DNA from: Prorocentrum cordatum
Lineage: Eukaryota
Direction of reading: 5' to 3'
Assembly: GCA_963575745.1 (NCBI GenBank)
Contig: CAUYUJ010000259.1
Span: 248,001-312,000, forward strand
Length of the DNA stretch: 64,000 nucleotides
The position numbers were made by a program, and so were the translations under genes. Numbering within the stretch: position 1 is the stretch's first letter; each line of letters begins with the position of its first letter. A model generated the notes under the pieces. That model searched no databases. It saw only the letters and a program-made list of their open reading frames with translations, and was not told the DNA's origin. Of the stretch, positions 14,832-47,877 are shown one piece after another.

Positions 14832-15046
14832 CGATGACGATGCTGATGCTGATGCTGATGCTGATGTTGATGCTGATGCTGATGCTGATGCTGATGCTGA
14901 TGCTTATGCTGATGCTGATGCTGATGCTGATGCTGATGCTGATGCTGATGCTGATGCTGATGCTGATGCTGATACTGATATGATGCTGATGATGATGATG
15001 ATGCTGATGATGATGATGATGCTGATGCTGCTGATGATGCTGCTGC

Positions 15047-15081
<35 letters not shown>

Positions 15082-15118
15082 GTGATGCTGATGCTGATGC
15101 TGATGCTGATGCTGATGC

Positions 15119-15150
<32 letters not shown>

Positions 15151-15836
15151 GTGATGGTGATGGTGATGATGATGATGATGCTGAGTCGGATGAGGCTGAG
15201 GATAAGGATGAGGATTGGGAGGAGGAGGAGGAGGAGAAGGAGGAGAGGGACCAGGAGGAGGAGGAGGAGGAGGAGGAGGAGGAGTTTGAAGAGGAGGCGG
15301 ATAAGGAGGAGGAGGAGGAGGAGGAGGAGGAGGAGGAAGGGAAAGGGGGAGACGGAGCAGGAGAAGGAGAAGGAGGAGGAGACGAGGAGAGGAGCAGGTG
15401 GAGAAGAAGGAGTGAAAGGAGGGACAGGAGGAGCAGGAGGAGGAGGAGGAGGAGGAGGAGAGGAGTGAAAGGAGGGACTAGGACTATGAGGAGAGGAGAG
15501 GAGGAGGAGGAAGAGGAAAAGGAGGACGAGGAGGAGGAGGAGGGAGGAGGAGGAGGAGTAGGAGCAAGATGGAAGAAGCAGGAGGAGGAGGTGGAGGAGG
15601 AGGAGGAGGAGGAAGAGGAGGACTAGGAGGAGGATTGGGAGGAGGAGCAGGAGGAGGAGGAGGGAAAATAGGATGATGAAGATCATGATGAGGAGGAGGA
15701 GGAGGACAAGGAGGAGGATTAGACTGAGGAGGAAGCGGATGACGAGGAGGAGGAGGAGGAGCAGGAGGTGGAGGAGGAGGAGAGGGAGGAGGAGGAGGAG
15801 GAGGAGGAGGAGGAGGAGGAGGAGGAGGAGAAGGAG
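14717..15836. repeat. (GAT)n/(GATGCT)n then (GAG)n microsatellite
   Basis: Directly visible. Confidence 0.97.
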
Positions 15837-16258
15837 TAGTTAGGCAACGAGTTGGGATTAAGCGCCCCCCTTGTGAGTCGCGCCGTGGTTCATCATGGTT
15901 CGGCCTAGTCCCAAAATGGTTGATCCAAGCCCCCTGCGAGGCCCTGTCCGATCATGGAAGGTAAGAGGCTACAGGAAGAGGAGGGAACTCTCAACAGAAA
16001 GCAGAGGGCGGAGAGGAGGATAGCGATGAGAAGGATGAGGAGGAGGAGGGCGAATATCGGAAGAGGGGGAGAAGAGGGGGAGAAGGATGAGGAGGAAGTG
16101 AAGATGAGGGGGAGCGAGGATGACGGAGCGAAGGTGAGAGAGCAAATAGCGCACGATGCCCTTTGGGAACAACCCCGCAATGAATAACATATGCTACCAC
16201 ACCCCGCAAATAACAGTACACATCCCTGATCATTACTAGCATTACGCGTGTCATCCCA

Positions 16259-16280
16259 TCCGGAGGCATTTCGCCTCCAG
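16259..16280 (+). other. Degenerate DinoSL relic upstream of the transposase
   Basis: TCCGGAGGCATTTCGCCTCCAG matches TCCGTAGCCATTTTGGCTCAAG at 17/22, ungapped, same strand, ~60 nt before the first transposase ORF. Confidence 0.6.
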
Positions 16281-16339
16281 CTTCCGGTGCCGAATGTGTC
16301 CATCCTTGCTTCATGCTCAGATGTGTGATGTTCGTGTGA

Positions 16340-19300
16340 ATGCAAATCGCTGGGGACGAAGATTCTCCTCGTGAACTAGAAGTCATCGGAGATGACGATG
16401 TTAGTGGCCCTCCGAGGGCCAAGCGCCGCCCGCGCCAGACTGCACTGCGCACAGTTGGTCTCTTTCGCGTGTGTCTCATTGTGGCTTCAATTGCTGGGTG
16501 GTGGCCTTCTGTGCGTAAAAATGGAGATGCATTATTTGATGTACCACATGGGCCCCATGTCATTGGAGCAGTGTTGTATCAATATGGTATGTTTTGCGAG
16601 TCGGATGCTGGCCGAAAGTCGAATAGAGATTTCAACAAGTTCTTTCCGCATCTTGGTAGGGTCACGAGGGCTGGTGACATATTTGGGATCATATCGTATG
16701 TTGCATCCGATCGCATCAAGTTTGAGAACCCAGGGCCAGTAGGTGTAGAGGTGCAGCATTTCATAGACAACTGTCGGGACCGAGGCGTTCGAAACTCTGA
16801 ACTCCGTGGGCTAGATGACAGGTTTGACTTTGTTCGGGAACTGCTGTTGTGGAAGCCTGAATGTTCGATATGTTCATTATGCACGCTGGTGCCAGCTCTG
16901 GCGTCTCTTGTAATTGGCGGCGCGCTCTCCTTGTTTCATTGCGCACCGATCACGACCAAGTCAGAGAGGGCCAGAATGCCGAGAGAACCGCCAACAAAAG
17001 ACATCAGGCGTCTACTGGGCCATCTTCGGGCCTCGCCGGGGCCCATGTCTTCGGGGTCTCTCGGCTGTGGTGGCGAGGGCATTCAGGTGACCAACCGAAT
17101 GTTGAAGTTAGCTGTCGACCCGTTGTTGTTGATCGATGGGGTACGGGCCTCGACGTACACAAAAAGCGTGAAAACATACATGGGGCCGCCGACGCATTCA
17201 AACGCATCTTCGCCAGATATGCGCACATCCCGTTAGGGGAAGTGTTGGGCCATGTTGAGCCAGTGCGTCTGGAAACGCTTCGTAGAGCTCGGGTCCGCCT
17301 CGGTACCACTGCCATGTTGATGACTCGGGCGCTGTTTCAGGATATATTGCGAACGGCCCCACTCAACAGCACCAACATGCATATATTTATTGGTGCGTCT
17401 CCTCAACGAAGAGGTTTAGAGCTGCACGCGTCGACAGTCGACATTTGGGCTGGTGACACATTTATCAGAAAAATGATGCCTGCGGTTTCGTTGGCGAGGG
17501 AGTTTGTTGACAGGGTTGGCAAGACAACCGCGACACTTTGGCAACTGTTTCTGTTATTCGGACCGTCGGCCGATGTGCTTAGCACGGTGTGCGCGCGTGT
17601 CCGCTCAATCACAACGGATCAAGGCACTGAGAGATTTATTCCAAACGTGCCAGGGTTCCTCGGGGATTGTTGCGAAATGCTCGGCAGAAGGTTCAGGCGT
17701 GACACATTCGAGGAGCAGCAATTCATGTTCATGAGATGCCTTGAGACGCCAGGCTGGTGCCATTTGTGGGATTTGCTCCTGCGACGTGGTCTTTCATCGT
17801 TCACTTGGTTTCCGACTTGGCTTAAAGGCGCGAAGGTTATTGTACATTGGTTGCGGCGGCAACCCATCGTAGACATCTCTGCCCGCAGGCTGAGACAAGA
17901 CAGGGGGCCAGGCGCCGCCGATATCACCCAATCCTTGAGGCCCCCATCCTGTGCGCAGTGGAGATGGCAGACGTTGCGCGCTGTGTGTGCTGAGTTGAAC
18001 ACTGGCATCGACACGCTCATAGCTTCTTGGGACCCCCTGCAACTGGCCACCAGTAAAGGTAAGGAGTTCGTCACGGCTGCGACGGGCGCCTTGAGATCAC
18101 CGATATGGAGACGGCTGTTTGGTGTAGTGAAGTGGGACTGCGGTTGGTTGCACCCTTTGTTGCCTTGGGGCCAAGGCTGCGCGTGCCGCCAACCAGGTGA
18201 TGACGATGCGCCGTCTTGCTCATTGAAGGGCCGCCGACTGCCAGAGGCGTACCACTACTCTATATCACATCTACGCGCTGGTGTTGAGGAGGTCAATGCG
18301 TGGTCGGCTGCTTCTTTTTAGGCCTCCCTGAGAGAGTCGCGCGAGAGATCCAAGGGCGCGTGAGGATGGTGGACTCACTGGCGAGGCGCAAGCTTCAGTA
18401 CTTGGACAGGATGCCACACGCCTGGCTCGCCCAATCGGATTGGGCGAGCCAGGCGTTCGAGACAGATGCATTCACCAGCGGGGACAGGTACCAGCAAACA
18501 TGCACCATCGAGTACCGAGGGAAATTCTTGTTGCCTGGCTGGTTGCTTCGGGGCCAAGTTGAGGCGCTGGCAGATGACGGCAGTGGAATGCTTCCAGAAC
18601 TGGCTGCTGAAGTCTCCAGCTTGCGCCAAGCGCCCATTGCTGACAGCGTGTGCGAGCGGCCTCGCGCCGTGGGCTCGCGGGTGGCACAGCGCTCGCGAGC
18701 CGCAGAGTGGCCATGGATCGCCAGCGCGATGCGAGTAGATCAAAACCTTGATGACGTAGACAATGCGCCGACTGTTGTCAGCGTTGATGTCCGTAAGGTT
18801 TGGGGGTGTCTCATTCGTCGATCATCCGAACATCTCACGCGCAGCGGCGTTCTCGGCTCCAGACTGCCTCCCGAATTCCCAGGAAGAAGCTAGAGGCCAA
18901 CGTGTATTCGATGGCCCACCTTCTGTCCGACGACGTCGGCCCAGCTGCCGACGACCCTGGCGATGACCCTGATGGCCGCGGCCCAGGCGGCGGTGCCCCA
19001 CCGCCGCCGCACTTTGGGCCTATCGTTCCACGAGTCCGAGGGGCCCCTGACGGACCGTATGGAGGCGCTGGAGGCGGAGGAGGTGGTGGCGGAGGTGGAG
19101 GCGGCGCTGGGGGGATTGGTGCTTTGTCTGGCCACGCCGCAGCTCAAGTTAAGCTGGTTCGCCAGTTGTTGTCGGCTTCGTTGGGGGTGTTCTCATCCAT
19201 TCCGCTGCCAACTCGCAGCGAAGACGGAGTCGCAGAACCGTTGCTCCTGCAAGTCTTGGCGCTCAAGGGGAGGGGCATCGTCGTGATGACGTGCGAAGAC

Positions 19301-20811
19301 GAGGTCGCCCCGGCGGGCAAGCCTGCAAGTTTTGATCCGGCTGAGGCTTGAGGGAGGATTGAGGAGAGGGAGGGAGGGAGTGAAGAGGGGGGTCGTGGGT
19401 GGGGGAGGAGGAGGTGGAGGATTGCTGGTGGTAGGGGGCTCAGGTGAGGGAGGAGAAGGAAGCTGAGATGTTTTAGTTTGTTTTTTCGAGAACGGCTTGA
19501 ACACGAGAAACGAGTCCAATAGCATCTCTGACTGCGATTCTACTGAGGCGTCGGGGAACATGTTACAGCCTCCTAAAGGTAGGGCCTCGAAAGGCCTCCA
19601 GGCAAGCCCCTGAAACATTCTCTGAGAAGCGCGAGGGGGGCGGACAGGATCTCAGGTTCGCGCGCGATATGTCTTGGCCCCCCAGGTTCACCAGAAAGGC
19701 GCGTACGAGATAACTGCCCAGTCATTCGAACGGCGGGGGCCTCTTGGAGACGAGTTGGAGTTGGGGGGTGACGTTCATTGTTTTCCAGTGGCAGACTCTG
19801 GCCAACTCGAAATTGCCACGCTGTTTGGTGGGCCAACGGAGCTGCAGCGTGACAAAATACAGAAGTGGGAGGTTCTGCCATCTCAGGTTGACGGGTGTGC
19901 GCGCTCGGCGAATCCCAAGCAGTTGCAGCCCCTCGTCGCGTTGTCTCACCCTAGCTGTCCTGTTCTTTCTTTGTCATATTACTTGGCATCGAAAGGGTGC
20001 GAAGCTATTAATCGTAAGACACTGCGCGACCAAACAGTGCACAACCAGTGCGATGGTCGTTCCCCCTTGGGTTCCTCATTTTATCTCCTGCGCGTGGTTC
20101 TCTTGGGCAGCCTGCGCGAATCTGGAGAGATGTTCTTCCCGTGCGGGCAGCCGCGGGCATAGTGCAGACTCTTGCTCAAAACGCGGAAACACCAACCGAT
20201 AGACAAAGGTGCCAAACACTACTTACAGTTGTTGGGTGAGTCTGTTGAGTGCGTGGACGTCGTGCCCGTCGTTGCCCATGCCCGTCCGCCGCCTGCGCTT
20301 CCGATAGGTGATATTGTTGGGGGCGACGAGCCTGATGTCGGCGTCATCCCTGCAGTCGTGGACGCCGACGGCGAACCCGCAGGGGTAGGGGAGGCCGGTT
20401 CGGGTGGCCACGGCGGCGGCGACATCGCCGTGGATGCGGACATGGAGGACCCGCCTCCACTTCCTCTGCCTGGGGCCCCCCCCGAGGCAGCGGCCGCCGC
20501 GGCAGCTCCCTTTCCAGGGGTCGTAGGGCATATCTTGGGCCAGCCAGTGAAGTTTATCCCTCGCAGGGTTGCGGGTGGCTATGTCCACTGGGAGCGGCTC
20601 CAAGCATTTTGCAATAATCCGATGCATCGCGCTTGCAAGTGTTATAAATCGAGGAGCTTGGATTTGTGCCGAGACCGTTTTGGGCCCAGGGCCGCCGAGG
20701 CTTTTTTTTTTGGGGGGGGCGTGGCTTGGCCAGAGCCACCTGCCTGTTGATGAGCGCGAGAAGCTCAGTCCCTCGTTTGCTGCCCAGCAATCGTATCTCG
20801 ACAACCGCTGA
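16340..20811 (+). pseudogene. Decayed hAT-like DDE transposase (frameshifts, a stop, probable intron ~19346-19680)
   Basis: Ordered motifs across overlapping ORFs: IFIGASPQ (expected first Asp is GGT at 17392), SITTDQGTE (Asp at 17617), PGWCHLWDLLL (CxxH-like), AQWRWQTL (RW motif), APIADSVCER (Glu at 18654). C-terminal C-x4-H-x2-C-x-C-YKSRS cluster; ends ...SYLDNR* at 20811. Start position approximate. Confidence 0.7.
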
Positions 20812-21327
20812 TGCGACCTCTGGCGGCTGTAGCGATGATAAACGCGCGGCGCAAAGCAAAGCTGAGAGGGAGTGAGGAAAAGAGGGGGAGGAGGAAGGAG
20901 AAGAGAGGTGAGGAGAGGATATTGAGGGAGGAAGGAGAACGTAGGACCCTGGTCCATGGGAGCCTGTGAGCCACGCACATGCGCCTGCACGGGCCTTCGC
21001 AAGGTCTGCGGGGGGGGGGGGGGGAGGGAAGGGATGGGGGGGGATCTGAGTGATGCTCACGGGGGCCTTCTAGTGGCAAGTGGTGCTCAACGGTTCACGC
21101 GAACCAAGCCAACTGTGGACGCGTTGTTGGCGTTCTCTCGTTCTGCTACCTGCGACTGCCGTCCTATTCCTAAGCATGTCTGTGGTATGCGTCTACACAT
21201 AGGTACACCATATGGGTGCGCTCCTAACGCATTAGGTTGCATAGCAAGTGCGCTGTTGCGCTGCCCACACTATGTGCATGAACAATGTATGCAAGCCCAA
21301 GGGCCTTGATGCAACTACGCCTTGGAG

Positions 21328-21583
21328 TGATGAACCATCCCAAAGCATGATGAACCATCCCGAACCATCCCAAACCATGATGAACCATCCTGAACCATCC
21401 CAATCCATGATGAAACCATCCTGAACCATCCCAAACCATGATGAAACCATGGTGAACCATCCTGAGCCATCCCAAACCATGATGAAACCATCTTGAACCA
21501 TCCCAAACCATGATGAAACCATCCCAAACCATGATGAAACCATCCCAAGCCATGATGAACCATCCAAAACCATGATGAACCAT
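21328..21583. repeat. Internal tandem array of the element's subterminal motif (CATGATGAACCATCCCAAAC-type, ~10-bp modules)
   Basis: Directly visible repeats of TGAACCATCC / CAAACCATGA; same motif as at both element ends. Confidence 0.92.
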
Positions 21584-21755
21584 GTCCTCCACTACCCCCC
21601 ACTACTGATGAAAAGTAGTTGCTGATGCGAGAGTTTCGTAGTTCATATTCCTGAAAAACAGTTGCAGCGCTAAGCTGCTATGTTGGTCTGGGGGCTTGGC
21701 GTGGAGATGAGAGCGCAACCGCTTCTTTATAGCTGCCGAACCCTATTGGGCACTA

Positions 21756-21777
21756 CCCGTAGCCATTTGGGCTCAAG
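21756..21777 (+). other. DinoSL relic upstream of the second gene of the element
   Basis: CCCGTAGCCATTTGGGCTCAAG: 20/22 to DinoSL; ATG follows at 21861. Confidence 0.92.
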
Positions 21778-21860
21778 GCGTTCGGCTACCACGGTGGCAA
21801 CACAGTGCGCCAGCAGCGCGCTGCAGCATCCCACTCCACCTTCGAGCTCCTGCTCTCGAG

Positions 21861-24227
21861 ATGGAGCGCAGGGACGTGGATCTCGTCGCTGACGACATCG
21901 GTGATTCCGCCGAGGAGCAGATGGACGTTCCTGCGCCGACCCCTTCCAAGGCATGCTTGCGCGGCGCTGGGGGCTGCGCTTCAGGGAAGATCACTGACGC
22001 CAAGTGCTACCCCTGCTTGCATGCTGGGGCGGCTTCGAAGTACCTCGGTTTCTTCCTCCACACCAAGTGCGTCAAAGCTGCGCGGTCGGCCAGGCGCGGA
22101 GATGCCGATGCGATGGGCGACATGGTGACGACGTCGGCCGAGGAGTGGAGGGCGCTCGTTTCGCCTGGAGTGACGGATGACAACCGCTATCGTGGGTCAG
22201 CGTTCCTCAAGACAGCGAAGACGGGGATTAAGGAGTACAAGAGGACCAAGGCGACGGAGAGGATCACCCCGAAGGTGGGCATGTGCAAGGTTCGCCACGT
22301 CAACTACATGAAGCTCTGGGAGGGACAGGACGAGGATATATCAGAGCTGGAGTTCGACGAAATCTTGGCTGACATGAAGAAGAAGGGCATCACCATCTAC
22401 GATAAAAAGAATCGTCCATGCATCCAGGTCGATGACAATGCTTCGACCCTGACCAAGACCATGAAGGAGGTGGAGCTCGAGGGGCCCAAGGCGGGGCGGA
22501 AGCGCAGGCGTGAGCCTGATCCGTCTCCCACTACGTCCGTGGCCGAAGACGATGATGACGGGGTTGGCGACGCATCCAGTGACCTGTCCGAGTGCGCAAC
22601 GTTCCGCCTTGGAACTTCGAGCGACGAGGTGCGCGCGCGCATGCGCGAGAAGAGGAAGGGTGCCAAGCTCGGTCCGACGCTCACCGAGGAGAACCAACAG
22701 AAGCTGGACGAGGCTGACGGCGTGGGGGGGGGGGGGGCAGGACGTCTTGGGCAGTCGATCTGTTTCGAAAGATTTTTCGGGAATCGCTTTCGAATTGCGT
22801 TTTCCTGTGAGGTGTAATGGGCCGCAGACTTTAAACTCACGTAAGTTGGTTCAACTCCTGCCGGCTTGATGGGCTGGTCTTCGGCGATCTTGGATGCCAT
22901 CGGGTGCTTGATTTTGCGGTCGTGCTCTGGGCCTTAGAGGTGTTGCCTCTCTCCCCGCAGGCTGCGGGCTCTGGCAAGAAGAAGTCTCCTGCGTCGGTGT
23001 CTGGGGCGAGCGTCTTGCGCGGGATCGGCGACAATGCTTCTCCAGTCGGCTTTATGAAGGAGCGCAAGAGGGCGGCCAGTCTTGCGTCTGACTCGCTCAG
23101 CGAGCTGCCAGGGCCCAGGGCAGAGCGCATGAGGATGACGCGGGCGAAGTGCCATCCTGCAAGAGGCCAGAACTCAACAACCTCTCGAAGCAGCTGGGCG
23201 AGCTCCTCGGGGAGATTGAGGCGTTCCAATCGGAGGTATCGGATGAGACCAAATGCATCGAGTTGATTCCCGGGGATCAGGCCAACGAGGTGAGGAAGGG
23301 AAATATGAAGGCCAGGTGTGCTCGGAGCAAGGTCGCATCGAAGCTTCTCGGGGGCAAGTTCGGCCAAGTGCACGCCAAGAACATTGCGGCGATCATCGAG
23401 GGCCTCGAACACCCTGATAGCCAGGCCTTCTACTTCGCCGACGTTGAAGGCGTCGTCAGCGAAGGCTCCCCGGAGGTGGCAGGAGACACCGTGTCCAAGT
23501 GGGGTTCCCAGACCGACTTCGTCAAGGAGCTCGCGAACATGCAGAATACGGATGAGATCACGTCGGCGATCAAGGCGCTCGTCGAGACGATGAAGGCATC
23601 AGGGCATGCGACTTGGCTTGGATGCATGACGAAAGTAGGCAGCGAACACCAGGTCACCGACGAGTTCAAGGAGTTCTTCAAGACCGAGCTGTTGTTCTTG
23701 AAGGAGAAGGGGGGGCTCCCGTGGGTGTCAACGTCTCGCCCCTGGGCGTGGCGCTACGGTCCCAGCCAGTTCCCGATGCCAGGAGTGGGGGCGCTGACTC
23801 AAGCAAAGTCGAATGACATGTACTTGCAGCTGATGAAGGCGAAGGTGGTGTTGGGCTGCGGCGTGTCCATCGAGGACCTCGCGGCGTTCCTCGAGTCCCC
23901 CCAGGGTGTGAAGGGCTTGAAGGGCCATGGCATTCTCGTCAAGGTCAAGTTGGACGAAGTTGTTTTCGTGCCGTGCGGTTGGCTGGTGCGCCGCTGCGTC
24001 GCCCGTCCACCGAACCCGACCAGGCCAAGTTTGCGTCGGAGACGTTCGGTTCCATTTGGTCCATGGCCCTCTTCTCGGCGGCCTGGGCGAAGGACGTCGG
24101 CGACCTGCGCTGCAAGGCCATCTCAAAGCTCAGCGTGGACAGGCTGCCCAAGTCTGCGCCGAACAGCTCCCTTTGGGAGGCGCGCCGCGCCACCTTCGCC
24201 AAGTTTCTTGAGCAGGTGGGGCAGTGA
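21861..24227 (+). pseudogene. Transposon-borne gene of unknown function: Cys/His-rich N-terminus, basic/acidic middle, C-terminal cupin/JmjC-like motif
   Basis: Strong coding-like codon use. Exon 1 is 21861-22712, then a GC-AG intron 22713-22960 (GAG|GCTG...CAG|GCTG). Exon 2 needs frameshifts at ~23150 and ~23990 and ends ...KFLEQVGQ*. VKLDEVVFVPCGW resembles the JmjC C-terminal GExxFVPxGWxH but lacks the His. Confidence 0.7.
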
Positions 24228-25736
24228 GCGTCGCACGGCAGAGGCCGATGACGTTCGTTTTTTTCAATGCCAGCGTCCTAGCCGAAAGGGTAAGCGCGAT
24301 CGAATGATGATGATGATGATGGAGCCTCCGCCTCGTCCTACTCCTCCTCCTTCTCCTCCCCCTCCTCCTCCACCCCCTTCCACCCGCTCCCCCTCCCCCT
24401 CCCCCCCCCTCCTCCTCCTCCCCCTCCCTCTCCTTCTCCTCTTCGCAAGCGTTGCGCAGGAGGCCGGGGGGGGGGGGGTGGGGAGGAGGGGAAAGAGAAA
24501 GATGAGAAGAAGGATGATGAGGCGGAAAAGGAGGAGGGAGGAGGCGGAGGAGGAGGAGGAGGAAGAGGGGGAGGAGGGGGAGGAGGAGGAGGAGGCGCGC
24601 AGCACAAAGAAATAATCCCCAGCACAGAAGGTCGGATGCACACCGCCTCTCGAGCTGTGGGCGCGTTTGGCGTCGACTCAGTCTCTAGCCGCCCTGGTCG
24701 CCCGAGCAGGGCGAATCGCGTGTTTGGTCCAGTCTCTCAAGAAAGCAACTCTTTCAACTTGACGTCAGGTCAGTTGGCTCATGCCCTCTTTTGCTGCTGT
24801 GACGCCAGTCATTTCTTCTCCGCTAGGGAGAGGCCAGCAGCGCGTTCGAGGGCCTCCAATTGTGACAAATCGCGGTTCCAAGGCCGGTTTGAGACAGCAC
24901 CCGCAAGACGAAAGAGGACCCCCATTGAGGCCCAAGTAGACCCCCAAGGGGCCCCAATGACATCAACACTCAGACTCACATGAGAAGGTTGTGCGGGGGT
25001 GCCCAAGGATCCCCAAGGGCTGCCGGGGCCCCCTGAGGACCCCCGAGGATATCAGCACTAAGACTTAACTTGGATCGTCGTTGTTATTATTGTTACCGTT
25101 GAAAGCCGCCCTCGCCATCGCCGTTAGAAACATCAACACCACCACAATCACCATCATCGTCCGTATTGGCATCAGCATTATCATGATTGTGAGATGTCCT
25201 AATGGGTGTGGTTGGGCATGCTCGCTGGACTGCGGCTCGTGTATCGGGCAGTCTGTGACCTCAAGACAGCGCCGATGGAACGTCGCAAATGCGTCGCCTC
25301 CCCTGCGATGATGAGGAGGAGGGGGGGGAATGAGGAGGGGGAGGATGAGGGGGAGGAGGAGGAGGAGGAGGGGGGGGAGGGAGGAGGAGGGAGGAGGATG
25401 GAGTGGAGGAAGGGAACGAGGGGGGAGGAGGAGACGGACCGAGACTCGTGTTCTTCTTCGTGCAGTAGTGTTCGGGCTTGGCCGTGCGGGGCCCGATTTC
25501 TTTCTTAGTGCGGCCAGAGGGCCGAACGTCGAGCCACAGGGCTCGCGTGTGCGCACCCGCTTGGCCAGACAGTGCCTGACTCGAGTTGCGCGAGGTCGTG
25601 AGCCACTCTTGCTCCATCGCGCCTCGCATTCCGTTACCCCCCACTCTCCACCTCCACTCGTCGCTCCCCCTTGCTTGTTGTATCTCTTTTGGTTTCGAGA
25701 GCTGCCTGCCTCTTTGCACTGGGAGGGGTCCGTGCG

Positions 25737-26123
25737 ATGGCAGGCAAGAAAGCTTCGTGGATCTGCACGCTGGGCGATGTCTGGGTGGATGAGGGGGCCG
25801 GGAACGAGCCTCAGCGGAGAGAACGCAGTCCTGAGAGTTGGACCGTGATGCGGTTATGCACTCCTCGCAAAGAGCCCGTGCCCGGCGGTGCACGCGGCCG
25901 TTTCTCGGACCCTAATATCATGATTGACCCCGAGTTCGACATAATCGCCGCAACCCGCAAGCTCCCGAGGAACAGGTATAAGATCCATTTTTTCGGCACG
26001 TGGCTCCCCAGTAAGAGAATGAGGCGGTCTTCCCAATCGATGCCCGCGCAGCCTGCCTCCTCCTCCCGTTCGTTGCCGCCGCCAGTTACGCCGACAAAAA
26101 AAAAGAGGCCGGATGCATCGTGA
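25737..26123 (+). CDS. Small basic hypothetical protein (128 aa) inside the element, possible third gene
   Basis: ATG at 25737; non-repetitive sequence; C-terminal NLS-like PTKKKRP. No family recognised. Confidence 0.35.
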   Translation: MAGKKASWICTLGDVWVDEGAGNEPQRRERSPESWTVMRLCTPRKEPVPGGARGRFSDPNIMIDPEFDIIAATRKLPRNRYKIHFFGTWLPSKRMRRSSQSMPAQPASSSRSLPPPVTPTKKKRPDAS

Positions 26124-27108
26124 TCGACTGACGTGGATGCGCATCCATGCGCTCATTCTTTCTAGGCGTGATCGCACAGTGCTGGCCTGTGCTCGACACG
26201 CCTTTCGTTCGCAATGGGGTGCGAACGTGTTGAAAAAATGCCAGCGTTCATCATGCCGTCATGGGCCCCAAGCTTGCTTGCACCACGCGTGTCATAACAT
26301 AACGCATCATCAGTAGTCAAGTTAGGCCGACGGGGACAACGATTAAGTGAACTGCACCAGAGGATGACTTGAGTGAGAGTGGGTGAGAGAGGGCGGGGGC
26401 GATTATGATAAGTCAAACGAGGCGGGGGATGACCAGGGTCCTCTAAGTGAAATGGGATGTGGGAGCACGAGGGGGTGGAGGATGAGGAAGGTGCGGCGAA
26501 AGGATACAAACGACGACGGCAGGGGGGATGAGGATGAGGAAGGACGCAAGGATGGGGAGGAGGAGGAAGCGGCCCACCCTCTGCCCGCCGCCTGCCTGGG
26601 GGCCTCGGCGAGCTTCGAGGCACCCACCCGCGGCCGCGGCCGCCGCGAGGGGAGGGGGGGGGACGCCCTTCTCCACCTCTCGCTCCTCCTCTCTACTCCT
26701 GGCCCATCTTCTCATTCTCCCTCCTCCCCACTCCTTGTCTCTCCTCGTGTCTCTCTCGTCTCGGAGCCGCGTTCTTATCTCAAGTTTCTCCACCTCTCTC
26801 TTCTCCTGGCCTCCCCTTCGCTCTTCCCCCGTTTCATCGCTCACGGGCTGAATGGGGCCTTCGCAAGGTAATGCCGCAGTTTCTGTTAGCAGAGGCTGGC
26901 AAATCCTTTGCTGGACCCTACCCGGTGCTGATCAGTTTGCGCTGCGCCCCAACAGTTTGGTATAAATCCGCCAGAAAGATGATTGAGACTTCCCCACGAA
27001 CCCAAACCATGATGAACCATCCCCAACCACCCCAAACCATGATGAACCATCCTGCCACTACCAGGGACCCCTTTTAACACAGGGTTGCCGCGAACCGCTG
27101 CCTCACTA

Positions 27109-28590
27109 AGGAGCAGGACGAGGAGGAGGAGGAGGAGGAGGAGGAGGAGGAGGAGGAAGAGGAGGAGGAAAACAAGTAGGATAACGAGGTGCAGAACGAC
27201 GACGAGGAGGAGGAGGAGGAGACAACAAAACACTGAGGAGCGGAAGGAGGGGGAGGAGGAGGAGGAGGAGAAGAGGAGAAGGTGGAGGAGGAGGGACAGC
27301 ACGGAAAGGACGAGGAGGACGAGGAGGGGGAGGAGGAGGAGGACTAGGAGGAGGGGGAAGGGGAGGAGGAGGACGAGGAAAAAGGAGGACGAGGAGGAGC
27401 AGGAATAGGAGGGGCGGAATAGGAGGAGGAGGAGGAGGAAGAGGAGGAAGATATGGCGTAGGAGGAGGGAACGGAGGGAACGGAAGCAAAGGAGGAGGAG
27501 GAGCAGGAGGAGGAGGAGGAGGCACAAGGAGGAGGAGGAGGAGGAAAGGAATGATGAAGGAGGAGAGGAGGAGGAGGAGGAGGAGGAGAGGAGGAGGAGG
27601 AGGAGGAGGGGAGGAGGAGGAGGAGGAGGAGGAGGAGGAGGAGGAGGAGGAGGAGGAGGAGGAGGAGGAGGCGCGGAGGCGGAGGAGGGGGAGGGGGAGG
27701 ACGGACGAGGAGGAGGACGAGGAGGAGGAGGAGGAGGAGGAGGAGGAGGAGGAGGCGGAGGAGGAGGAGAGAGGAGGAGGAGGAGGAGGAGGAGGAGGAG
27801 GAGGAGGAGGAGGAGGAGGAGGAGGAGGGGGAGGGGGAGGGGGAGGGGGAGGAGGAGGAGGAGGAGGAGGAGGAGGAGGAGGAGAGGAGGAGGAGGAGGA
27901 GGAGGAGGAGGAGGAGGAGGAGGAGGAGGAGGCGGAGAGGAGGAGGAGGAGGGAGGAGGAGGAGGAGGAGGAGGAGGAGGAGGAGGAGGAGGGAGGAGGA
28001 GGAGGAGGAGGAGGAGGAGAGGAGAGGAGGAGGAGGAGGAGGAGGAGGAGGAGGAGGGGAGGAGGAGGAGGAGGAGGAGGAGGAGGAGGAGGAGGAGGAG
28101 GAGGAGGAGGAGGAGGAGGAGGAGGAGGAGGAGGAGGAGGAGGAGGAGGGAGGAGGAGGAGGAGGAGGAGGAGGAGGAGGAGGAGGAGGAGGAGGAGGAG
28201 GAGGAGGAGGAGGAGGAGGAGGAGGAGGAGGAGGAGGAGGAGGAGGAGGAGGAGGAGGCGGAGGAGGAGGAGGAGGAGGAGGAGGAGGAGGGAGGAGGAG
28301 GAGGAGGAGGAGGAAGAGGAGGAGGAGGAGGAGGAGGAGGAGGAGGAGGAGGAGGAGAGGAGGAGGAGGAGGAAGAAGAAGAAGAAGAAGAGGAAACATA
28401 ATAAGAATAATAATAAGAAGAAAAAGAAGAAAAAGAAGAAGAATAATAATAATAAGAAGAAGAAGAAGAATAAGAAGAGGAGGAGGAGGAGGAGGAGGAG
28501 GAGGAGGAAGAGGAGGAGGAGAAGGAAAGGGAGGAGGACGAAGAGAAGGAGGAAATGGAGGAGGAGGAGCAGGAGGAGGAGGAGGAGGAG
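27109..28590. repeat. (GAG)n microsatellite with (GAA)/(AAT) patch
   Basis: Directly visible. Confidence 0.97.
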
Positions 28591-28599
28591 GGCGCGAAG

Positions 28600-30417: not shown

Positions 30418-31851
30418 CTACGGCCGCAGCGCCGCGGGAAAGGTGCCTCTTTCCTGCTCGCAGCCGAGATGCGAACGGCACCAGCCCAACACCGAAGCCC
30501 CAGAGTGCCGCGCACGGCCCCCAAGGGGCCCAGACCAGGGGGGCCGGGAGGGCCAGGGAACCCGCCCCAAGGGACCGAGGCCCCCGCGGACAGGAGGACG
30601 ACATCCCCCACAGCGCCCATCCCCTCGGGCCTCTGCCAGCTTCTCCTGCAGGTGCGGCTTCTCCGACCCGACCAGCTGCTCAAGCCAGCACTTGAGGACC
30701 TTGAGCTTCGCCTGGCCTGAGGCGTCCAGGCCGTCAAAGCGGCCGTCCACGAAGAGCTGCAGAGTGGCCTTGGCGCCCTCCTCGAAGTCGGTGGACCCCG
30801 ACGCCACGCCGAGCGCCAGCTCCGACTCGTTGAGGCCCTGCACCGTGTCGAACACCTCAGTGTAGCTGCACATGACCTCGATGTCCTCCTTGGACTCCGC
30901 ATCGCGGCAACCCTTGCACTCCGCGACCACCGTCTGGCTGAGGGCCTCGAAGTGATCACGCTCCTGCTTCAACTGCCATGCGACCTCCCTCGACTCCATG
31001 AGCTCTGAGGCCAAGTCCTGGACGGCCCTCCCGATCTCGACGTCGTCCTGGAAGCTGCTCTGCAAGGTCTGCGTGCTCGCTTCTAAGAAGTACTCGCCGA
31101 GGTACCACTTCATCACCCCGTCTTTGTGGTGGCCGAAGACTCCGTCGGCGCCGTTGCTCCCGAAGCCGCTGTCGCTGAGATGCATCTCGTGCGACGCTTG
31201 GCCTCCAGAAGCTTCCTGGCCAGGAGCCGCTTGGTCGTCACGCTCTCCAGGGGGTCTTTCTCCATCTTGTCGCTCTCCGTGCCCGCTTTCCTGCGAGCCC
31301 ATCGTGATGCCCTCGGCCAGTTGCGACCCCACGCCTCGTCCTCGCCCTCCTCGCTCTCCTGGTCGGCCGCCACGCTCTTCTTGGCCAGCAACGTTGTCTT
31401 GCACCAAGACCGCGGGTCCTTCTTGTTCAGCTGGATCCAGCCTCTCTGAAGCCAGAATGCCGCCGTCCTCGCACTGCTTGATGGGGCCCTCGATGGTGAC
31501 TTCAGCGAACGACGCTTCTGACTCGCCGACCGCCCCGTCACCTGCTCCAGAGGGACATAGCCAAGGTCCATCTTGTCCTTGAAGCCCTGCAGCTCCCCGT
31601 AGCCGAGCCCCATCGATGCAAATGGCTGCTCCCTGTGGCAGGCCGCAAGGCTCCTGAGGTCCAGAGCAAGCGGTGGCATCGCTGTCGCCTGCGAGACCGC
31701 CCTTGATGCTGAACCGGCCTCCGCACAGCACCACCTGCCACTCGAGGGTCTCCCCACTGCCGAACTCGAGGTCCTTGAGGAAACGCCCCACGACTTGCTC
31801 GGCACCTGCCAGTCCAGCGGTCCTTCGCTGGTGAACAGTTGCACCGCTCAT
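30418..31851 (-). CDS. Intronless SL-headed hypothetical protein (477 aa, acidic, predicted helical), probable retrogene
   Basis: Uninterrupted ORF from MSGATVHQ starting ~84 nt after the SL relic; G/C-ending codons; no introns, unlike neighbouring genes; no recognisable domain. Confidence 0.7.
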   Translation of the reverse strand: MSGATVHQRRTAGLAGAEQVVGRFLKDLEFGSGETLEWQVVLCGGRFSIKGGLAGDSDATACSGPQEPCGLPQGAAICIDGARLRGAAGLQGQDGPWLCPSGAGDGAVGESEASFAEVTIEGPIKQCEDGGILASERLDPAEQEGPAVLVQDNVAGQEERGGRPGERGGRGRGVGSQLAEGITMGSQESGHGERQDGERPPGERDDQAAPGQEASGGQASHEMHLSDSGFGSNGADGVFGHHKDGVMKWYLGEYFLEASTQTLQSSFQDDVEIGRAVQDLASELMESREVAWQLKQERDHFEALSQTVVAECKGCRDAESKEDIEVMCSYTEVFDTVQGLNESELALGVASGSTDFEEGAKATLQLFVDGRFDGLDASGQAKLKVLKCWLEQLVGSEKPHLQEKLAEARGDGRCGGCRPPVRGGLGPLGRVPWPSRPPWSGPLGGRARHSGASVLGWCRSHLGCEQERGTFPAALRP

Positions 31852-31934
31852 GCCCGCATGGCTCGCCGCGGCAACGCCGCTTCGAATCGCGCCGCTGCAA
31901 CCCCCGCGCGCCCCGCGCGGGGCCGAAACGGCTC

Positions 31935-31956
31935 CTTGAGCTAAAATGGCTACGGA
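31935..31956 (-). other. DinoSL relic
   Basis: Minus strand TCCGTAGCCATTTTAGCTCAAG: 21/22 to DinoSL. Confidence 0.95.
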
Positions 31957-34864
31957 GGAGCAGGAACAGGAGCAGAAACAGGATGAAGAGGAGTCACGGC
32001 CTCGATGAGGGGAAGGGGGGGACATTTCCTTTTGGTCAACTCGGCGCCTATCGCATCTATCGGGTTCCAGAAGTCGTCCTTCCCCTCCATGTCTTTTCTC
32101 TATCTCGCTCTTCCCCCCCCTCCTACCCAGAGTGTACATTTTGACATAGGTTGGGGGGAAGGAGGGAGGAGAGGAGAGGAGAGATGGGAGGAAGGGGATG
32201 AGCTGGCATGGGTGGGGGAGGTTCTGCTTATGTTTTTTTTGTAGTGACTCGAGAAGGCCTTCCGGAAAGTCCGGTACAGCTACCACCCGGTGATCGTGAT
32301 CCCCGTGTTGACCGAGACGCTGGCCAGCAGCGACGAGAAGGCCACCCCTACGACCAATTGCGCAACCCACCCCCTGCTGGCCAGAATTGACGCTGAGGTA
32401 TCGGGCACCTCCGCTGGGGTTCACTCCGATGCAGACGTCCTTCATCGTCAGAACCCGATCCGCTTCTTCGGAGGTCTGACCCGCTCGGGAGTCGCGTAAT
32501 GAGATGGCGATACAGTGGAAGCCCATGCCAAGAAACACCCTTCTTGCCTCCAAGGTGCCCTGGGTTTCTTGGGTTTCGATGGCTCTGCCATGGAGAGAGT
32601 GACGCCCCCACACCAGCAATCCATGGACGTCGTGGGGTTCCCGGGTGGGGTCTCTTGTGGAGTGTTTCTCAAGGTCGGGCCCCTACTGTTTGTTTGGGGG
32701 GGGGTGATAAATGGGGGGTGAGGAGGGTGCACCACCTGGGCCCCGAGGGGGGCCTGTAAGGCACCCCTTTGTGGGGGCCCAGGATGGGCACGACTGGTGC
32801 ACGCCCCCAACCCCTTCGCTGTGGTAGGTTCATGGTTCATGCGGCGATGCGTCACGGGGGGCGAGGGGCGATAGCCCTGTGCCCCCGATAAGAACACCGG
32901 GGATCATAAAGTTCGGGGCCCCGGGGGGGATTAACGATTTGTTCCGGCAAGACGTCACGAAATTTAAAAGACGGAACATGTGGGAACCCGGGATTTATGT
33001 GTATTTATGTGTGTGTCCCTGGGCGCCCTTATAATATTTCATACAAGCGTAGAAGTCGTATGGTGACGAGTTGTTCGGTCATGTTTGGAACATTTTTTTT
33101 TTGAGCCGGGCGTGTTCGCCATTTTTCCGACCCTGGGATTCTCACAGATCGACGTGGCTCGAAGAATGGCGCAGACAGATGGGGTCTAGTGCTCCAGGCG
33201 TGATTCTATACGATGTTGCAAGTTTTTCCGCTATGTCGGATTTCAGGGTTTATACGTTTCCGTGGGTTCCTAGATGTTGGTTTGCCTCGGGATGCGTTCC
33301 AGCAGCTGCGCCTCGCCGACACCGCGCGGGTGCCCGGATCACTTTGAACGTCGGTCACAGGGCTGGGAAACATGTACGCGAGCGTAGCATGCGTCCGCGC
33401 CGCCGTTGGTTGTTCAAGCGGCCGGCGCTCGATTAGCCCAGATCGTAAGCGCAGTTATGGATCCGCTACTGCATCCGAAAAGAAAACGCCTCCTGGAGAA
33501 TGCCTCCCACATTGTTCGTTTTAGCACCAGTACTATATTTCACGATGTCTACCTCCTCTCTGCTTGGTGGCGGAGTTGGCCTCACCTGCTTGTGGTCAGC
33601 TCTGTCCGCGCTTGGGAACAAACTACTACATCATCTCCGTTTGCGCAGGAACCTAGCACCACTATCTCTGGACCAGCATGGGGACATGCCTCCACAGCCG
33701 ATTCGCCGACTCACGTTGACAAGCGGACACACCAAAATCAACGCCCGACACCAGACTCGACCCAACATGGAAGCATGACCTACAACTTCTTCTGTTTGGT
33801 ACTATTTGGCTATGCGTCGGCTGTGCTGCTGGTTACATGCATCGTGGTAACCACCACGACGGATGTGATAACACCACCAGGGGCCGTCATGGGGACCCCG
33901 CGGAACGCGTATCGCACATCGAATTTTCTCAAACCATCGAATTTTCTCAAACAAATCACGCGTAGCTTAATTTCACCAACGCCCGCATAACACCGCAACA
34001 ACAAGCTGCATACCTGCAGCGTGGCTTAGGTTGGGTCGCTCGCACTGTCGCGATGCGGAATTCACCACAAATTTTGAACTACGGCGTGACAATTCAAGGG
34101 GTCCACACGGACACTTATATGTATGTATTATATATATACATCTCTCTCTCTCTCTCTCTCTTCAGCGACGAGTTCGAGAACCTGGAGGATGAGCGCCAGC
34201 TCACCTCAGGTACTGCGCGAATCCGAAACATGCAAGGACGTCTGGGATATAGCAAGTATCCAGATCAACATATTATTCGGTGCATGGTGCGGGTGAGCGT
34301 TCAGCAAAGTCGATGACCGTCCGGGTTGGCTGAGGCGACCGATTAGTGACGTTTTCTTGGGGATGACATGTACGACACTGGTCACCATGCGTTGCTGTAC
34401 ACCTAAGCGTTGCATTCGATGACAGACGTCACGCTGTGCAATCCGTGTTTTTTTGTGATCGTGGTGTCGTAGCTGTTCCTGATTTGTTTCCCCATCTGTC
34501 CTCTCCGTCCGTGCCCCCGTCCCTTCCGCGGCTGTGTTTCCGCCGAGGTGGAAAAGGAGGACCTTACGGGCCTTGCAGAGGGGAGGAGCGAAGAGTGAGC
34601 AATGAGGGAAGGTTGAGGGAGGGAGGAGGATGAGGACAACGAGGAAGACGAACAACAATGATCAGGACGAGCAGGAGGACCAGGCTTGGGCGGATGAAGA
34701 AGAGAATCAGGACGACGAGGATGAGGGAGCGAAGGAGCGAGAAGGGAGGCGGACCGTGCATGGACATTCGATTCGATCTTTGTGGCCCAAGATGCCCTCT
34801 GGACCCCCGAAAACAAAAATCGGCCTGACGAGTACCGCATTGTTGGTACCGGTTTCGGTGAAGC

Positions 34865-47578: not shown

Positions 47579-47622
<44 letters not shown>

Positions 47623-47830
47623 CTGATGATGATGATGATGATGACGATGATGATGATGATGCTGGTGCTGCTGATGATGATGCCGATGCTCATGATCATT
47701 ATGATGCTGATGAGGATGGTCATGGTGCGGATGATGATGATACTGATGCTGCTGTTGATAATGCTGATGATGATTATTATGAAGATGCTCATGAGGATCA
47801 TGATGACGATGATGCTGCTGATGATGATGC

Positions 47831-47877
<47 letters not shown>

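What the first reader, a model, noticed from the sequence alone, without database searches (positions are those of the whole stretch)
15837..27108. 11.3-kb hAT-like DNA transposon whose genes are headed by spliced-leader relics
Seen: TIR-like ends (11/13), inverted subterminal 15-mers, a decayed DDE transposase preceded by a 17/22 DinoSL match (16259), and a second gene preceded by a 20/22 match (21756), all on one strand. Known: genomic DinoSL relics mark reverse-transcribed trans-spliced mRNAs, and hAT elements usually encode one protein and move without an RNA step. Inference: this cut-and-paste element was assembled from retroposed mRNAs, including its own transposase message, or it hard-wires SL-like leaders to support expression. 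I am not aware of this architecture being described, but could not search the literature.
Basis: partly seen in the sequence, partly recalled or inferred. Interest (0 to 1): 0.9.

Follow-up and report, generated by a model that had tools for sequence, protein, structure and literature searches.

The report
Dead hAT-like transposon with spliced-leader relics
A decayed cut-and-paste transposon in a dinoflagellate genome belongs to a very large, unnamed transposase family whose genes carry a remnant of the host's spliced-leader sequence just before the start codon, which may let the element bring its own expression signal wherever it lands.

Summary
15837-27108 lies between (GGA)n tracts. Its 13-nt ends match 11/13 in inverted orientation (12 of 5000 shuffles reach this), with inverted 15-mers inside each end.

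The first gene (16340-20811) is a pseudogene of a ~1,350-aa protein: at least 5 frame changes, one stop, and G in place of the first catalytic D. The family has no Pfam match but is large (4539 representative clusters). Its core folds like the hAT transposase Hermes (Z 20.4; next best 9.2).

The weak 17/22 spliced-leader match at 16259 is not chance. All 5 metagenome loci that reach the gene's 5' end (4 independent) carry a 17-19/22 relic 0-27 nt before the ATG, two of them with intact ORFs.

The relic sits 420 nt inside the left end, so it is carried by the DNA element. It is probably an ancient retroposition scar kept as a portable trans-splice acceptor or promoter.

The second gene (20/22 relic at 21756) is an orphan. 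It lies between two copies of the right subterminal sequence, so it is most likely a captured or inserted retrogene and not part of the family design.

No genome was available, so other copies with these ends, TSDs and mobility remain untested.

The parts
14987..15836 (.). Left flank: (GGA)n-type microsatellite that abuts the element
   Evidence: Tandem Repeats Finder rows 14987-15829 and 15218-15836; sequence
15837..15849 (+). Left terminal inverted repeat (13-mer beginning TAG)
   Evidence: 11/13 against the reverse complement of 27096-27108; 12 of 5000 shuffles reach this; unique partner in the window at 2 mismatches or fewer
15883..15900 (-). Left subterminal motif copy (AACCATGATGAACCA core), inverted relative to the right-hand copies
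   Evidence: the 120-nt ends align with score 44 against a maximum of 32 in 300 shuffles
16259..16280 (+). Decayed spliced-leader (DinoSL) relic, 17/22, 59 nt upstream of the transposase ATG
   Evidence: homologous relics sit at the start codon in L001-L005
16340..20811 (+). Pseudogene of a ~1,350-aa hAT-like transposase, with no intron. It has at least 5 frame changes, a TAG at 20160-20162, G in place of the first catalytic D at 17392-17394, the second D at 17617-17619 and the E at 18654-18656
   Evidence: fold
21331..21583 (+). Internal array (about 7 units of 31 nt) of the subterminal motif, 520 nt after the transposase stop. Its last ~58 nt (21543-21600) are about 90% like 27000-27065. Read here as the original right subterminal region (R1), lacking the terminal 43 nt
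21756..21777 (+). Well-kept DinoSL relic (20/22) heading the second gene
21861..24130 (+). Second gene, an orphan. ORF 21861-22811 (frame 0) and ORF 23092-24130 (frame 1). A possible GT-AG intron lies at 22812-22960, followed by a frame change near 23100. GC3 is 0.73-0.75
   Evidence: no Pfam match, no relatives, no Atlas hit
24131..26999 (.). Rest of the passenger segment: low-complexity tracts and ORFs with no family match; function unassigned
   Evidence: flank-motif density is at background, 0.8 per kb
27000..27065 (+). Right subterminal region (R2) with two motif copies
27096..27108 (+). Right terminal inverted repeat
27109..28591 (.). Right flank: (AGG)n microsatellite

Best explanation
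15837-27108 is a dead, composite copy of a dinoflagellate-specific, hAT-like cut-and-paste transposon.

The transposase gene. The single-exon gene (16340-20811) once encoded a ~1,350-aa protein. Its core is an RNase-H-type DDE domain with a helical insertion, as in Hermes. In this copy the gene is broken by at least 5 frame changes and one stop, and the first catalytic D is replaced by G. This copy could therefore move only with transposase supplied by another copy.

The relic at 16259. The 22-mer 59 nt before the ATG is a worn copy of a DinoSL-derived leader that is a trait of the whole family. I infer that an ancestor of the family took the 5' end of its transposase gene from a reverse-transcribed, trans-spliced mRNA. 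The scar has since been carried inside the DNA element.

Why the relic persists. It is most likely kept because it gives a mobile gene, at any landing site, a ready trans-splice acceptor (the AG at leader positions 6-7). It may also supply the T-rich promoter-like motif proposed for retrogenes.

The second gene. Its fresher relic marks an unrelated host retrogene, picked up with about 5.4 kb of DNA in the right subterminal region by insertion, gap-repair capture or use of a distal right end. It is not part of the family's architecture.

Shown: the fold, the gene decay, the inverted ends, and the recurrence of the relic across the family. Inferred: transposition itself, selection on the relic, the relic's function, and how the second gene was acquired.
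For: Fold:
- An AlphaFold2 model of family member P0024 with 103 aligned sequences gave pLDDT 91.0 and pTM 0.87.
- In Foldseek against the PDB, ranks 1-10 are all Hermes transposase (E 2e-8 to 1e-6). The next family is P element at E 0.03.
- VIA-align against 48,161 chains put Hermes 8edg_A at Z 20.4 (383 residues aligned, rmsd 4.5), with P element next at Z 9.2.

Catalytic columns in alignment A5:
- First D: 82 of 82 non-gap rows.
- Second D: 93 of 94.
- E: 45 of 48.
- H of the PGW.H motif: 99 of 99.

Family size: 4539 representative clusters at E<=1e-3 and 1108 at E<=1e-30. Full-length members are 1256-1459 aa.

Decay of the window copy.

Ends:
- 11/13 match at the boundaries, reached by 12 of 5000 shuffles.
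- The right boundary is the only partner in 64 kb.
- The 120-nt ends align with score 44 against a shuffle maximum of 32.

Relic as a family trait:
- Of 6 metagenome loci encoding relatives, 5 reach the 5' end of the gene.
- All 5 have exactly one DinoSL-like 22-mer with 3-5 mismatches, on the coding strand, ending between 3 nt inside and 27 nt before the ATG.
- Each has 77-619 nt of unrelated DNA upstream of the relic. L001 and L005 are near-identical, so this is 4 independent loci.
- L002 and L004 have intact ORFs of 1341 and 1357 aa.
- Two further family proteins read through a relic as VAILVQ and RSHFGS just before the start.

Pattern of mismatches (my tally from the sequences, over 5 independent relics):
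- Leader positions 4-17: 8 of 70.
- Positions 18-22: 9 of 25.

Relic internal to the repeated DNA: a ~90% diverged second copy in the same organism's DNA run is homologous from at least 16196, which is 63 nt upstream of the relic.

Similar layout in L004: an inverted pair at 268-294 and 4806-4832 brackets the relic and the ORF. GAAACC/GAACCA hexamers cluster in the ORF flanks of L002, L004 and the window.

Second gene as a passenger:
- No relatives found.
- No match in the 6 loci.
- Flank motif at background density.
- Bracketed by homologous R1 and R2.

Published context (passages read):
- About 23% of Symbiodinium genes are retrogenes with relics.
- The relic's AG is described as a trans-splice acceptor and TTT(T/G) as a putative promoter (PMC5585692; PMC12014239).
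Against: - No second copy with these termini could be examined, and no empty site. The 8-bp flanks (6/8) lie in a microsatellite, so neither mobility nor the exact ends are proven.
- (GGA)n tracts are frequent in this window. A GGA-rich tract also lies inside the element at 15990-16130, so 'one microsatellite split by an insertion' is not secure.
- The terminal ~50 nt alone align only weakly: 16 of 300 shuffles reach the score.
- Inverted-repeat tests on the flanks of L002 and L004 are weak: 9 and 10 of 200 shuffles reach the score.
- The hexamer enrichment counts tandem copies, so its p-values are inflated. Motif orientation differs between loci.
- L002 has an A-rich stretch about 170 nt after its stop and a microsatellite directly before its relic. 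That is what a plain retrocopy would look like.
- The relic in the window and in L001/L005 has lost TTT(T/G) or the AG respectively.
- The diverged second copy is no more leader-like: 16/22 against 17/22.
- No Pfam hAT model matches any member.
- Selection on the relic is argued from 5 independent sequences only.
Confidence: 0.55

Rival explanations
1. Retro-amplified gene family, not a DNA transposon. The hAT-like protein genes multiply as ordinary dinoflagellate retrogenes: mRNA with spliced leader, then reverse transcription, then integration. Each relic would mark the 5' edge of an independent retrocopy. The inverted ends in the window would be coincidental or would belong to something else.
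For: - Every locus examined has a single relic directly before the ORF, and the gene has no introns.
- L002 has a (GA)n tract immediately before the relic and an A-rich stretch about 170 nt after the stop.
- Retrogenes make up about 23% of genes in Symbiodinium (PMC5585692).
- No convincing TIRs were found in L002 or L004.
Against: - Homology between the window copy and the diverged second copy begins at least 63 nt upstream of the relic.
- The relic lies 420 nt inside a significant inverted-end pair.
- No poly(A) remnant follows the window gene.
- No leader-plus-truncated-relic tandem, expected after repeated mRNA recycling, occurs in any of the 6 loci or the window.
- The catalytic triad is conserved across thousands of diverged clusters. 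That fits proteins which still transpose something.
- The same hexamer clusters flank the ORF in three diverged loci.
Confidence: 0.22
2. The element is: a two-gene transposon assembled from two retroposed mRNAs, with both genes integral to it.
For: Both genes are on one strand, each is headed by a relic, and both lie inside one pair of inverted ends.
Against: - Two word-indexed searches of 5.8 billion clusters found no relative for either ORF of the second gene, while the transposase family is very large.
- None of 6 related loci has a match to the second gene, though only L002 and L004 extend 330-430 nt past the stop.
- An array homologous to the right subterminal region stands between the two genes.
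- The segment carrying the second gene has background motif density.
Confidence: 0.1
3. The 11.3-kb unit is not a mobile element at all. It would be a stretch between two unrelated (GGA)n tracts that happens to hold a transposase retro-pseudogene, a retrogene, and a local short-repeat family that occurs in both orientations.
For: - (GGA)n tracts occur about a dozen times in the window, and inside the unit too.
- The TSD is uninformative.
- The terminal similarity without the 15-mer is weak: 16 of 300 shuffles reach the score.
Against: - The 11/13 inverted match lies exactly at both microsatellite edges (12 of 5000 shuffles) and has a unique partner in the window.
- The 15-mer motif occurs nowhere else in the 64 kb.
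Confidence: 0.1

Closest known systems
hAT superfamily transposons (Hermes, hobo, Ac); solved structure: Hermes transposase (PDB 8edg, 4d1q, 2bw3)
   Same: - RNase-H-type catalytic core split by a large helical insertion domain, with Hermes as by far the best structural match.
- Conserved D, D, E and a W/H motif after the second D.
- Short inverted termini beginning TAG, and short subterminal repeats.
- One transposase gene per element in the related loci.
   Different: - No Pfam hAT model matches, and identity to Hermes in the structural alignment is 11-13%.
- The protein is about twice as long, with roughly 250 aa before and 550 aa after the Hermes-like core. The C-terminal extension ends in a conserved Cys/His motif.
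- No BED finger was detected.
- The 8-bp TSD is not demonstrable here.
- A spliced-leader relic sits at the start codon.
Dinoflagellate retrogenes tagged by DinoSL relics (mRNA recycling; PMC5585692 and PMC12014239, passages read)
   Same: - A genomic copy of the 22-nt leader on the coding strand shortly before the ORF, and an intronless gene.
- The central part of the relic (after the AG, including the T-run) is better kept than its edges. This is the pattern those papers report for retrogenes generally.
   Different: - Here the relic lies inside a unit with inverted ends and is shared by a transposase family across deep divergence, including intact copies.
- There are no stacked relics and no poly(A) trace in the window.
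- In the passages I searched, neither retrogene paper mentions DNA transposases ('transpos' occurs 0 times in PMC5585692 and once, in another sense, in PMC12014239).
DinoSL at the 5' end of dinoflagellate +ssRNA virus (dinoRNAV) transcripts, discussed as molecular mimicry (PMC9651163, passages read, citing Levin et al. 2017)
   Same: A selfish genetic element that carries the host's leader sequence, with the proposed benefit of host-like expression and a TTTT promoter-like motif.
   Different: That case is an RNA virus and its endogenous copies. This one is a DNA transposon family whose relic is encoded in the element.
Gene capture and composite elements in cut-and-paste transposons (Pack-MULEs, Ac/Ds macrotransposons) - recalled, not checked in a paper here
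   Same: Host DNA with a gene lies inside the termini, bracketed by duplicated subterminal sequence.
   Different: The mechanism is not established here, and the captured gene is itself a retrogene with a leader relic.

Membership tests
hAT superfamily | DDE RNase-H-like catalytic domain interrupted by a large all-alpha insertion domain, Hermes-like fold | tested here: met
   Model pLDDT 91. Hermes at Foldseek E 2e-8 with probability 1.00. VIA Z 20.4 over 383 residues against 9.2 for the next family.
hAT superfamily | Catalytic D, D, E present | tested here: met
   For the family: 82/82, 93/94 and 45/48 non-gap rows. For the window copy itself the first D is G (codon 17392-17394), so this copy is catalytically dead. 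Residue-by-residue equivalence to Hermes D180/D248/E572 (numbers recalled) was not checked.
hAT superfamily | C-terminal hAT dimerisation domain (Pfam PF05699) and other hAT sequence models | tested here: inconclusive
   No Pfam family at E<=0.1-1 in the window ORFs, 8 first hits or 20 full-length members. The structural alignment does run to Hermes residue 609.
hAT superfamily | Short terminal inverted repeats | tested here: met
   11/13 at the two boundaries, reached by 12 of 5000 shuffles. Unique partner in the window.
hAT superfamily | 8-bp target site duplication | tested here: inconclusive
   The flanking 8-mers agree at 6/8, but both lie in (GGA)n.
hAT superfamily | Multiple copies sharing termini; excision and insertion polymorphism | not testable with these tools
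   No genome is held. One low-depth DNA run shows a ~90% diverged second copy of 16196-17173 only.
DinoSL-relic retrogene | Leader relic on the coding strand upstream of the ORF | tested here: met
   16259 (17/22) and 21756 (20/22). Also seen in 5 of 5 related loci that reach the 5' end.
DinoSL-relic retrogene | Homology to parent or sister copies begins at the relic; poly(A) remnant and short duplications at the edges | tested here: not met
   For the transposase gene in the window, the second copy is homologous from at least 63 nt upstream of the relic. No A-run follows the gene. For the second gene, no poly(A) or duplication was found, and no parent is available for comparison.
DinoSL-relic retrogene | Intron loss relative to a parent gene | not testable with these tools
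   The transposase gene is colinear with the proteins, without gaps, but no intron-bearing parent is known. The second gene may contain a GT-AG intron at 22812-22960.

The most novel reading that the evidence does not exclude
A very large, so far unnamed dinoflagellate lineage of hAT-like DNA transposons has made the host's spliced leader part of the element. A leader-derived 16-22-mer is maintained by selection at the transposase start codon. It serves as a portable trans-splice acceptor and/or core promoter, so the transposase can be expressed from any insertion site in a genome where every mRNA must be trans-spliced. The family began when a trans-spliced transposase mRNA was reverse-transcribed back into a transposon.
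Probability: 0.4. Interest if true: 0.8.

Novelty: new variant of a known kind. Interest (0 to 1): 0.66.

Why it matters
Dinoflagellate genomes are very large and repeat-rich, and their DNA transposons are almost uncharacterised. This finding identifies a family of thousands of diverged ~1,350-aa proteins that no Pfam model recognises, and places it by structure next to hAT transposases.

It also shows that members of the family carry a spliced-leader remnant at the start codon. If selection maintains that remnant, it would be an example of a cut-and-paste element adapting to obligatory trans-splicing by carrying its own leader-derived expression signal. It would also link the RNA-based (retroposition) and DNA-based routes of gene mobility in these genomes.

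In practice, the family profile and the relic give a handle for annotating these elements. They also suggest a candidate portable expression cassette for dinoflagellate genetics.

Four full-text searches and passages in five papers turned up no description of a DNA transposon with a DinoSL relic. The library lacks most subscription journals, so this is not proof that none exists.

Tried and rejected
- Whole genome: none is held, so copy number, shared termini and empty sites could not be examined.
- Sequencing runs: no RNA holder was listed.
- Reads laid on the element: one DNA run of apparently the same organism, kept as low-depth contigs, plus two other organisms. It gave a diverged second copy of 16196-16341, 16504-16823 and about 17024-17173. 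The listed joints fall in G-rich or (GGA)-rich low-complexity tracts and I did not use them. Bins 26040-26419 and 26800-27160 have no cover, which says nothing.
- Earlier findings of this scan: nothing by place, sequence or words.
- First structure model from a 10-sequence alignment: pLDDT 58, not used.
- Sequence search of the PDB with the family profile: only a chance hit at E 0.87.
- Viral contigs: no relative found.
- Second gene: Pfam gave only MCM_C at E 0.12. No homologues for either ORF. The protein Atlas gave no usable hit. No match in the 6 related loci.
- Other ORFs in 19136-26692: no Pfam family.
- Rfam over the whole window: no match, so there is no annotated SL RNA gene.
- An internal right terminus after the array: no TIR-like 13-mer in 20800-22000 at 3 mismatches or fewer. 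The sequence after the array does not resemble the right terminal 55 nt (45 of 300 shuffles reach the score).
- Retrocopy edges for the second gene: no poly(A). The only A-run is A9 at 26096, and no flanking duplication of 12 nt or more was found.
- TIR search in L002 and L004 flanks: weak (9 and 10 of 200 shuffles reach the score).
- The idea that the 16259 match is chance: rejected.
Full report
WHAT IS THERE

The window is GC-rich (about 0.6). It carries three matches to the dinoflagellate spliced leader (DinoSL) with 6 mismatches or fewer, where shuffles give 0.1 per window at 5 or fewer. They are at 16259(+), with 5 mismatches; 21756(+), with 2; and 31956(-), with 1. The host is therefore a dinoflagellate. 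No whole genome is held for it.

The stretch 15837-27108 lies between a (GGA)n-type tract (14987-15836) and an (AGG)n tract (27109-28591).

THE ENDS

- The first 13 nt and the reverse complement of the last 13 nt agree at 11/13.
- When 13-mers may slide within 25-nt windows at the two boundaries, 12 of 5000 shuffles reach this.
- At 2 mismatches or fewer, the right boundary is the only partner of the left 13-mer in the whole 64 kb.
- A 15-mer (AACCATGATGAACCA) lies 46 nt inside the left end in inverted orientation, and twice inside the right end.
- The two 120-nt ends align with score 44, against a maximum of 32 in 300 shuffles. That signal comes mainly from the 15-mer. The terminal ~50 nt alone are weak, with 16 of 300 shuffles reaching the score.
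- The flanking 8-mers agree at 6/8, but they sit in a microsatellite, so this tells nothing.
- (GGA)n tracts are common in this window, and a GGA-rich tract also lies inside the unit at 15990-16130. 'One array split by an insertion' is therefore suggestive only.

THE FIRST GENE

The 486-aa ORF at 16861-18321 found 8 unnamed relatives (E 3e-87 to 3e-11). A profile of these found 4539 representative clusters at E<=1e-3 and 1108 at E<=1e-30. Full-length members are 1256-1459 aa.

No Pfam family matches the window ORFs, the 8 first hits, or 20 full-length members. No PDB sequence matches the profile.

Full-length relatives align colinearly to the window from 16382 to 20805, passing through frames 2, 1, 3, 2, 3, 1, with a TAG at 20160-20162. 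The gaps between pieces match the gaps in the proteins, so these are frameshifts and not introns. The gene runs from the ATG at 16340 to the stop at 20809-20811.

The most conserved motif of the family, D-[AS]-S-P-Q-W-R-G, reads G-A-S-P-Q-R-R-G in the window (codon 17392-17394). The gene is dead.

THE FOLD

A first model from 10 sequences was poor (pLDDT 58). A model of family member P0024 with 103 aligned sequences reached pLDDT 91.0 and pTM 0.87.

- Foldseek against the PDB: Hermes transposase chains fill ranks 1-10 (E 2e-8 to 1e-6, probability 1.00, TM about 0.5 over about 600 columns). The next families are P element (E 0.03) and RAG1 (E 0.07).
- An independent all-against-representatives alignment: Hermes at Z 20.4 (383 residues aligned, rmsd 4.5, model residues 84-588). 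It is followed by P element at Z 9.2 and retroviral integrase cores at about Z 8.5. Transib scores 6.4.
- Candidate catalytic residues lie where an RNase-H fold puts them: after strand 1, after strand 4, and on a late helix. They are kept in 82/82, 93/94 and 45/48 non-gap rows.

I did not obtain a residue-level superposition on Hermes. The family is hAT-like by fold, far from canonical hAT by sequence, and about twice as long.

THE LEADER RELIC AHEAD OF THE TRANSPOSASE GENE

On its own, the 17/22 match at 16259 is borderline. A scan of metagenome contigs with two conserved peptides returned 6 loci that encode relatives. Five of them include the 5' end of the gene.

Each of the five has exactly one DinoSL-like 22-mer at 5 mismatches or fewer, on the coding strand:
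- L002: 19/22, ending 5 nt before the ATG.
- L004: 18/22, overlapping the ATG.
- L003: 18/22, 21 nt before the ATG.
- L001 and L005: 17/22, 27 nt before the ATG. These two are near-identical, so the five loci give four independent cases.

All have 77-619 nt of unrelated DNA upstream of the relic, and all carry mismatches. They are therefore encoded in DNA and are not fresh leaders on mRNA.

L002 and L004 have intact ORFs of 1341 and 1357 aa that start at that ATG. Two more family proteins, whose called ORFs run upstream, contain the leader translated in frame (VAILVQ and RSHFGS) just before the conserved N-terminus.

The N-termini are homologous across loci. The better kept the gene, the better the relic:
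- L002 (intact): 3 mismatches.
- L004 (intact): 4 mismatches.
- L003 (one interruption): 4 mismatches.
- L001 (truncated): 5 mismatches.
- Window (dead): 5 mismatches.
This is only five cases.

Across the five independent relics, my tally gives 8 of 70 mismatches at leader positions 4-17. These positions include the AG and the T-run. Positions 18-22 have 9 of 25.

The 16259 relic is therefore real and a family trait.

IS THE RELIC THE EDGE OF A RETROCOPY OR PART OF A DNA ELEMENT?

For the DNA element:
- The relic lies 420 nt inside the left inverted end.
- A ~90% diverged second copy in a DNA run of apparently the same organism is homologous from at least 16196, which is 63 nt upstream of the relic. 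In that copy the relic is 16/22.
- No poly(A) trace follows the gene.
- No stacked relics occur, although repeated mRNA recycling should produce them.
- The catalytic triad is conserved across thousands of diverged clusters.
- In L004 an inverted pair (268-294 and 4806-4832) brackets the relic and the ORF at distances like those in the window.
- GAAACC/GAACCA hexamers cluster in the ORF flanks of L002, L004 and the window at 9.6-12.7 per kb, against 0-0.9 per kb in the ORFs. Tandem copies inflate those p-values, and the orientation varies.

For a plain retrocopy:
- L002 has a (GA)n tract directly before its relic and an A-rich stretch about 170 nt after its stop.
- The inverted-repeat tests in L002 and L004 are weak.

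I rate 'relic carried inside a DNA transposon' as the better reading, but it is not proven.

WHY THE RELIC WOULD BE KEPT

Family members that share about 35-45% protein identity could not retain a neutral 22-mer. Either each lineage acquired a relic independently, or the relic is under selection.

Published work on retrogenes (passages read) proposes that the AG inside a relic serves as the acceptor for the next trans-splicing. It also proposes that the TTT(T/G) motif serves as a basal promoter, which would explain the high survival of retrogenes (PMC5585692; PMC12014239). A DinoSL on dinoflagellate RNA-virus transcripts has been discussed as mimicry (PMC9651163).

For a transposase gene that lands at arbitrary sites, a built-in acceptor and promoter would be useful. 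This is inference. The window relic has lost the T-run motif, and the L001/L005 relic has lost the AG.

THE SECOND GENE

The 20/22 relic at 21756 is followed 83 nt later by an ATG at 21861. Two ORFs follow (21861-22811 and 23092-24130) with coding-like GC3 of 0.73-0.75. A GT-AG interval at 22812-22960 could be an intron, and a frame change is needed near 23100.

The gene has no identifiable relatives:
- No Pfam family.
- No relative of either ORF.
- No Atlas hit.
- None of the six related loci has a match. Only L002 and L004 extend 330-430 nt beyond the stop.

Between the two genes stands a 250-nt array of the subterminal motif (21331-21583). Its last ~58 nt, including 13 nt beyond the array, are about 90% like 27000-27065 at the right end. 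No TIR-like 13-mer follows the array. The 21756-26899 segment has the flank motif at background density.

The simplest reading is that the original element ended shortly after the array. About 5.4 kb carrying a host retrogene then came to lie inside the right subterminal region. The route is unknown. I found no poly(A) or duplication marking a simple retro-insertion.

COMPARISON AND NOVELTY

The element works like a hAT transposon and passes the fold, catalytic-triad and TIR tests. It fails or leaves open the sequence-model and TSD tests.

The relics are those of dinoflagellate retrogenes. For the transposase gene, however, homology does not start at the relic, so that copy is not a simple retrocopy.

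Four full-text searches and passages in five papers gave no description of a DNA transposon carrying a DinoSL relic, nor of this protein family. The library omits most subscription journals, and I did not read supplements.

I rate it a new variant of known kinds.

VERDICT

- Observation: confirmed.
- Interpretation: partly supported. The hAT-like identity and the hard-wired leader relic hold up. The designed two-gene architecture does not.
- Main gap: mobility, the true termini and selection on the relic all need the source genome and transcripts.

Noticed in passing
window 31935-31956 (-): A third DinoSL relic (21/22) on the minus strand heads a long minus-strand ORF (within 30418-32682). Leader relics are therefore common in this stretch of genome.
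   Followed up: partly
window 18418-18456: A 39-nt near-perfect palindrome (97%) lies inside the transposase pseudogene, at the place where the family consensus (P-Y-L-L-A-R-L-G-E-P-G-V) is disrupted in the window copy. It may be a small inverted duplication.
   Followed up: partly
window 16259-16280: Two of the five mismatches to the leader (positions 8 and 16) are complementary to each other, so the leader's small stem (AGCC/GGCT becoming AGGC/GCCT) is kept. In the diverged second copy the stem is shortened by the change at 16273. This could be chance.
   Followed up: no
L003 1-107, and window 27063-27077: In L003, five tandem copies of a 21-nt palindromic unit (GACCCCGGGGTCCTTTTAAAG) lie directly upstream of the relic. 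The window's right end contains a similar GGGACCCCTTTTAA.
   Followed up: no
window 20517-20805, and the C-termini of full-length relatives: The ~550-aa extension after the Hermes-like core ends in a conserved Cys/His-rich motif (C-N-N-P-x-H-x-x-C ... F-F-L-G-x-W) of unknown fold. It has no Pfam match.
   Followed up: partly
window 22812-22960: A possible 149-nt GT-AG intron lies in the second gene although the gene is headed by a leader relic. PMC5585692 notes that some retrogenes retain introns.
   Followed up: no
window 4944-7635 and 34906-35776: Two long tandem satellites: a 122-bp unit repeated about 21 times, and a 77-bp unit (154/344-bp higher order).
   Followed up: no
window 46576-47877: A 1.3-kb degenerate (TGA)n tract coincides with the lowest GC in the window (0.48).
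   Followed up: no
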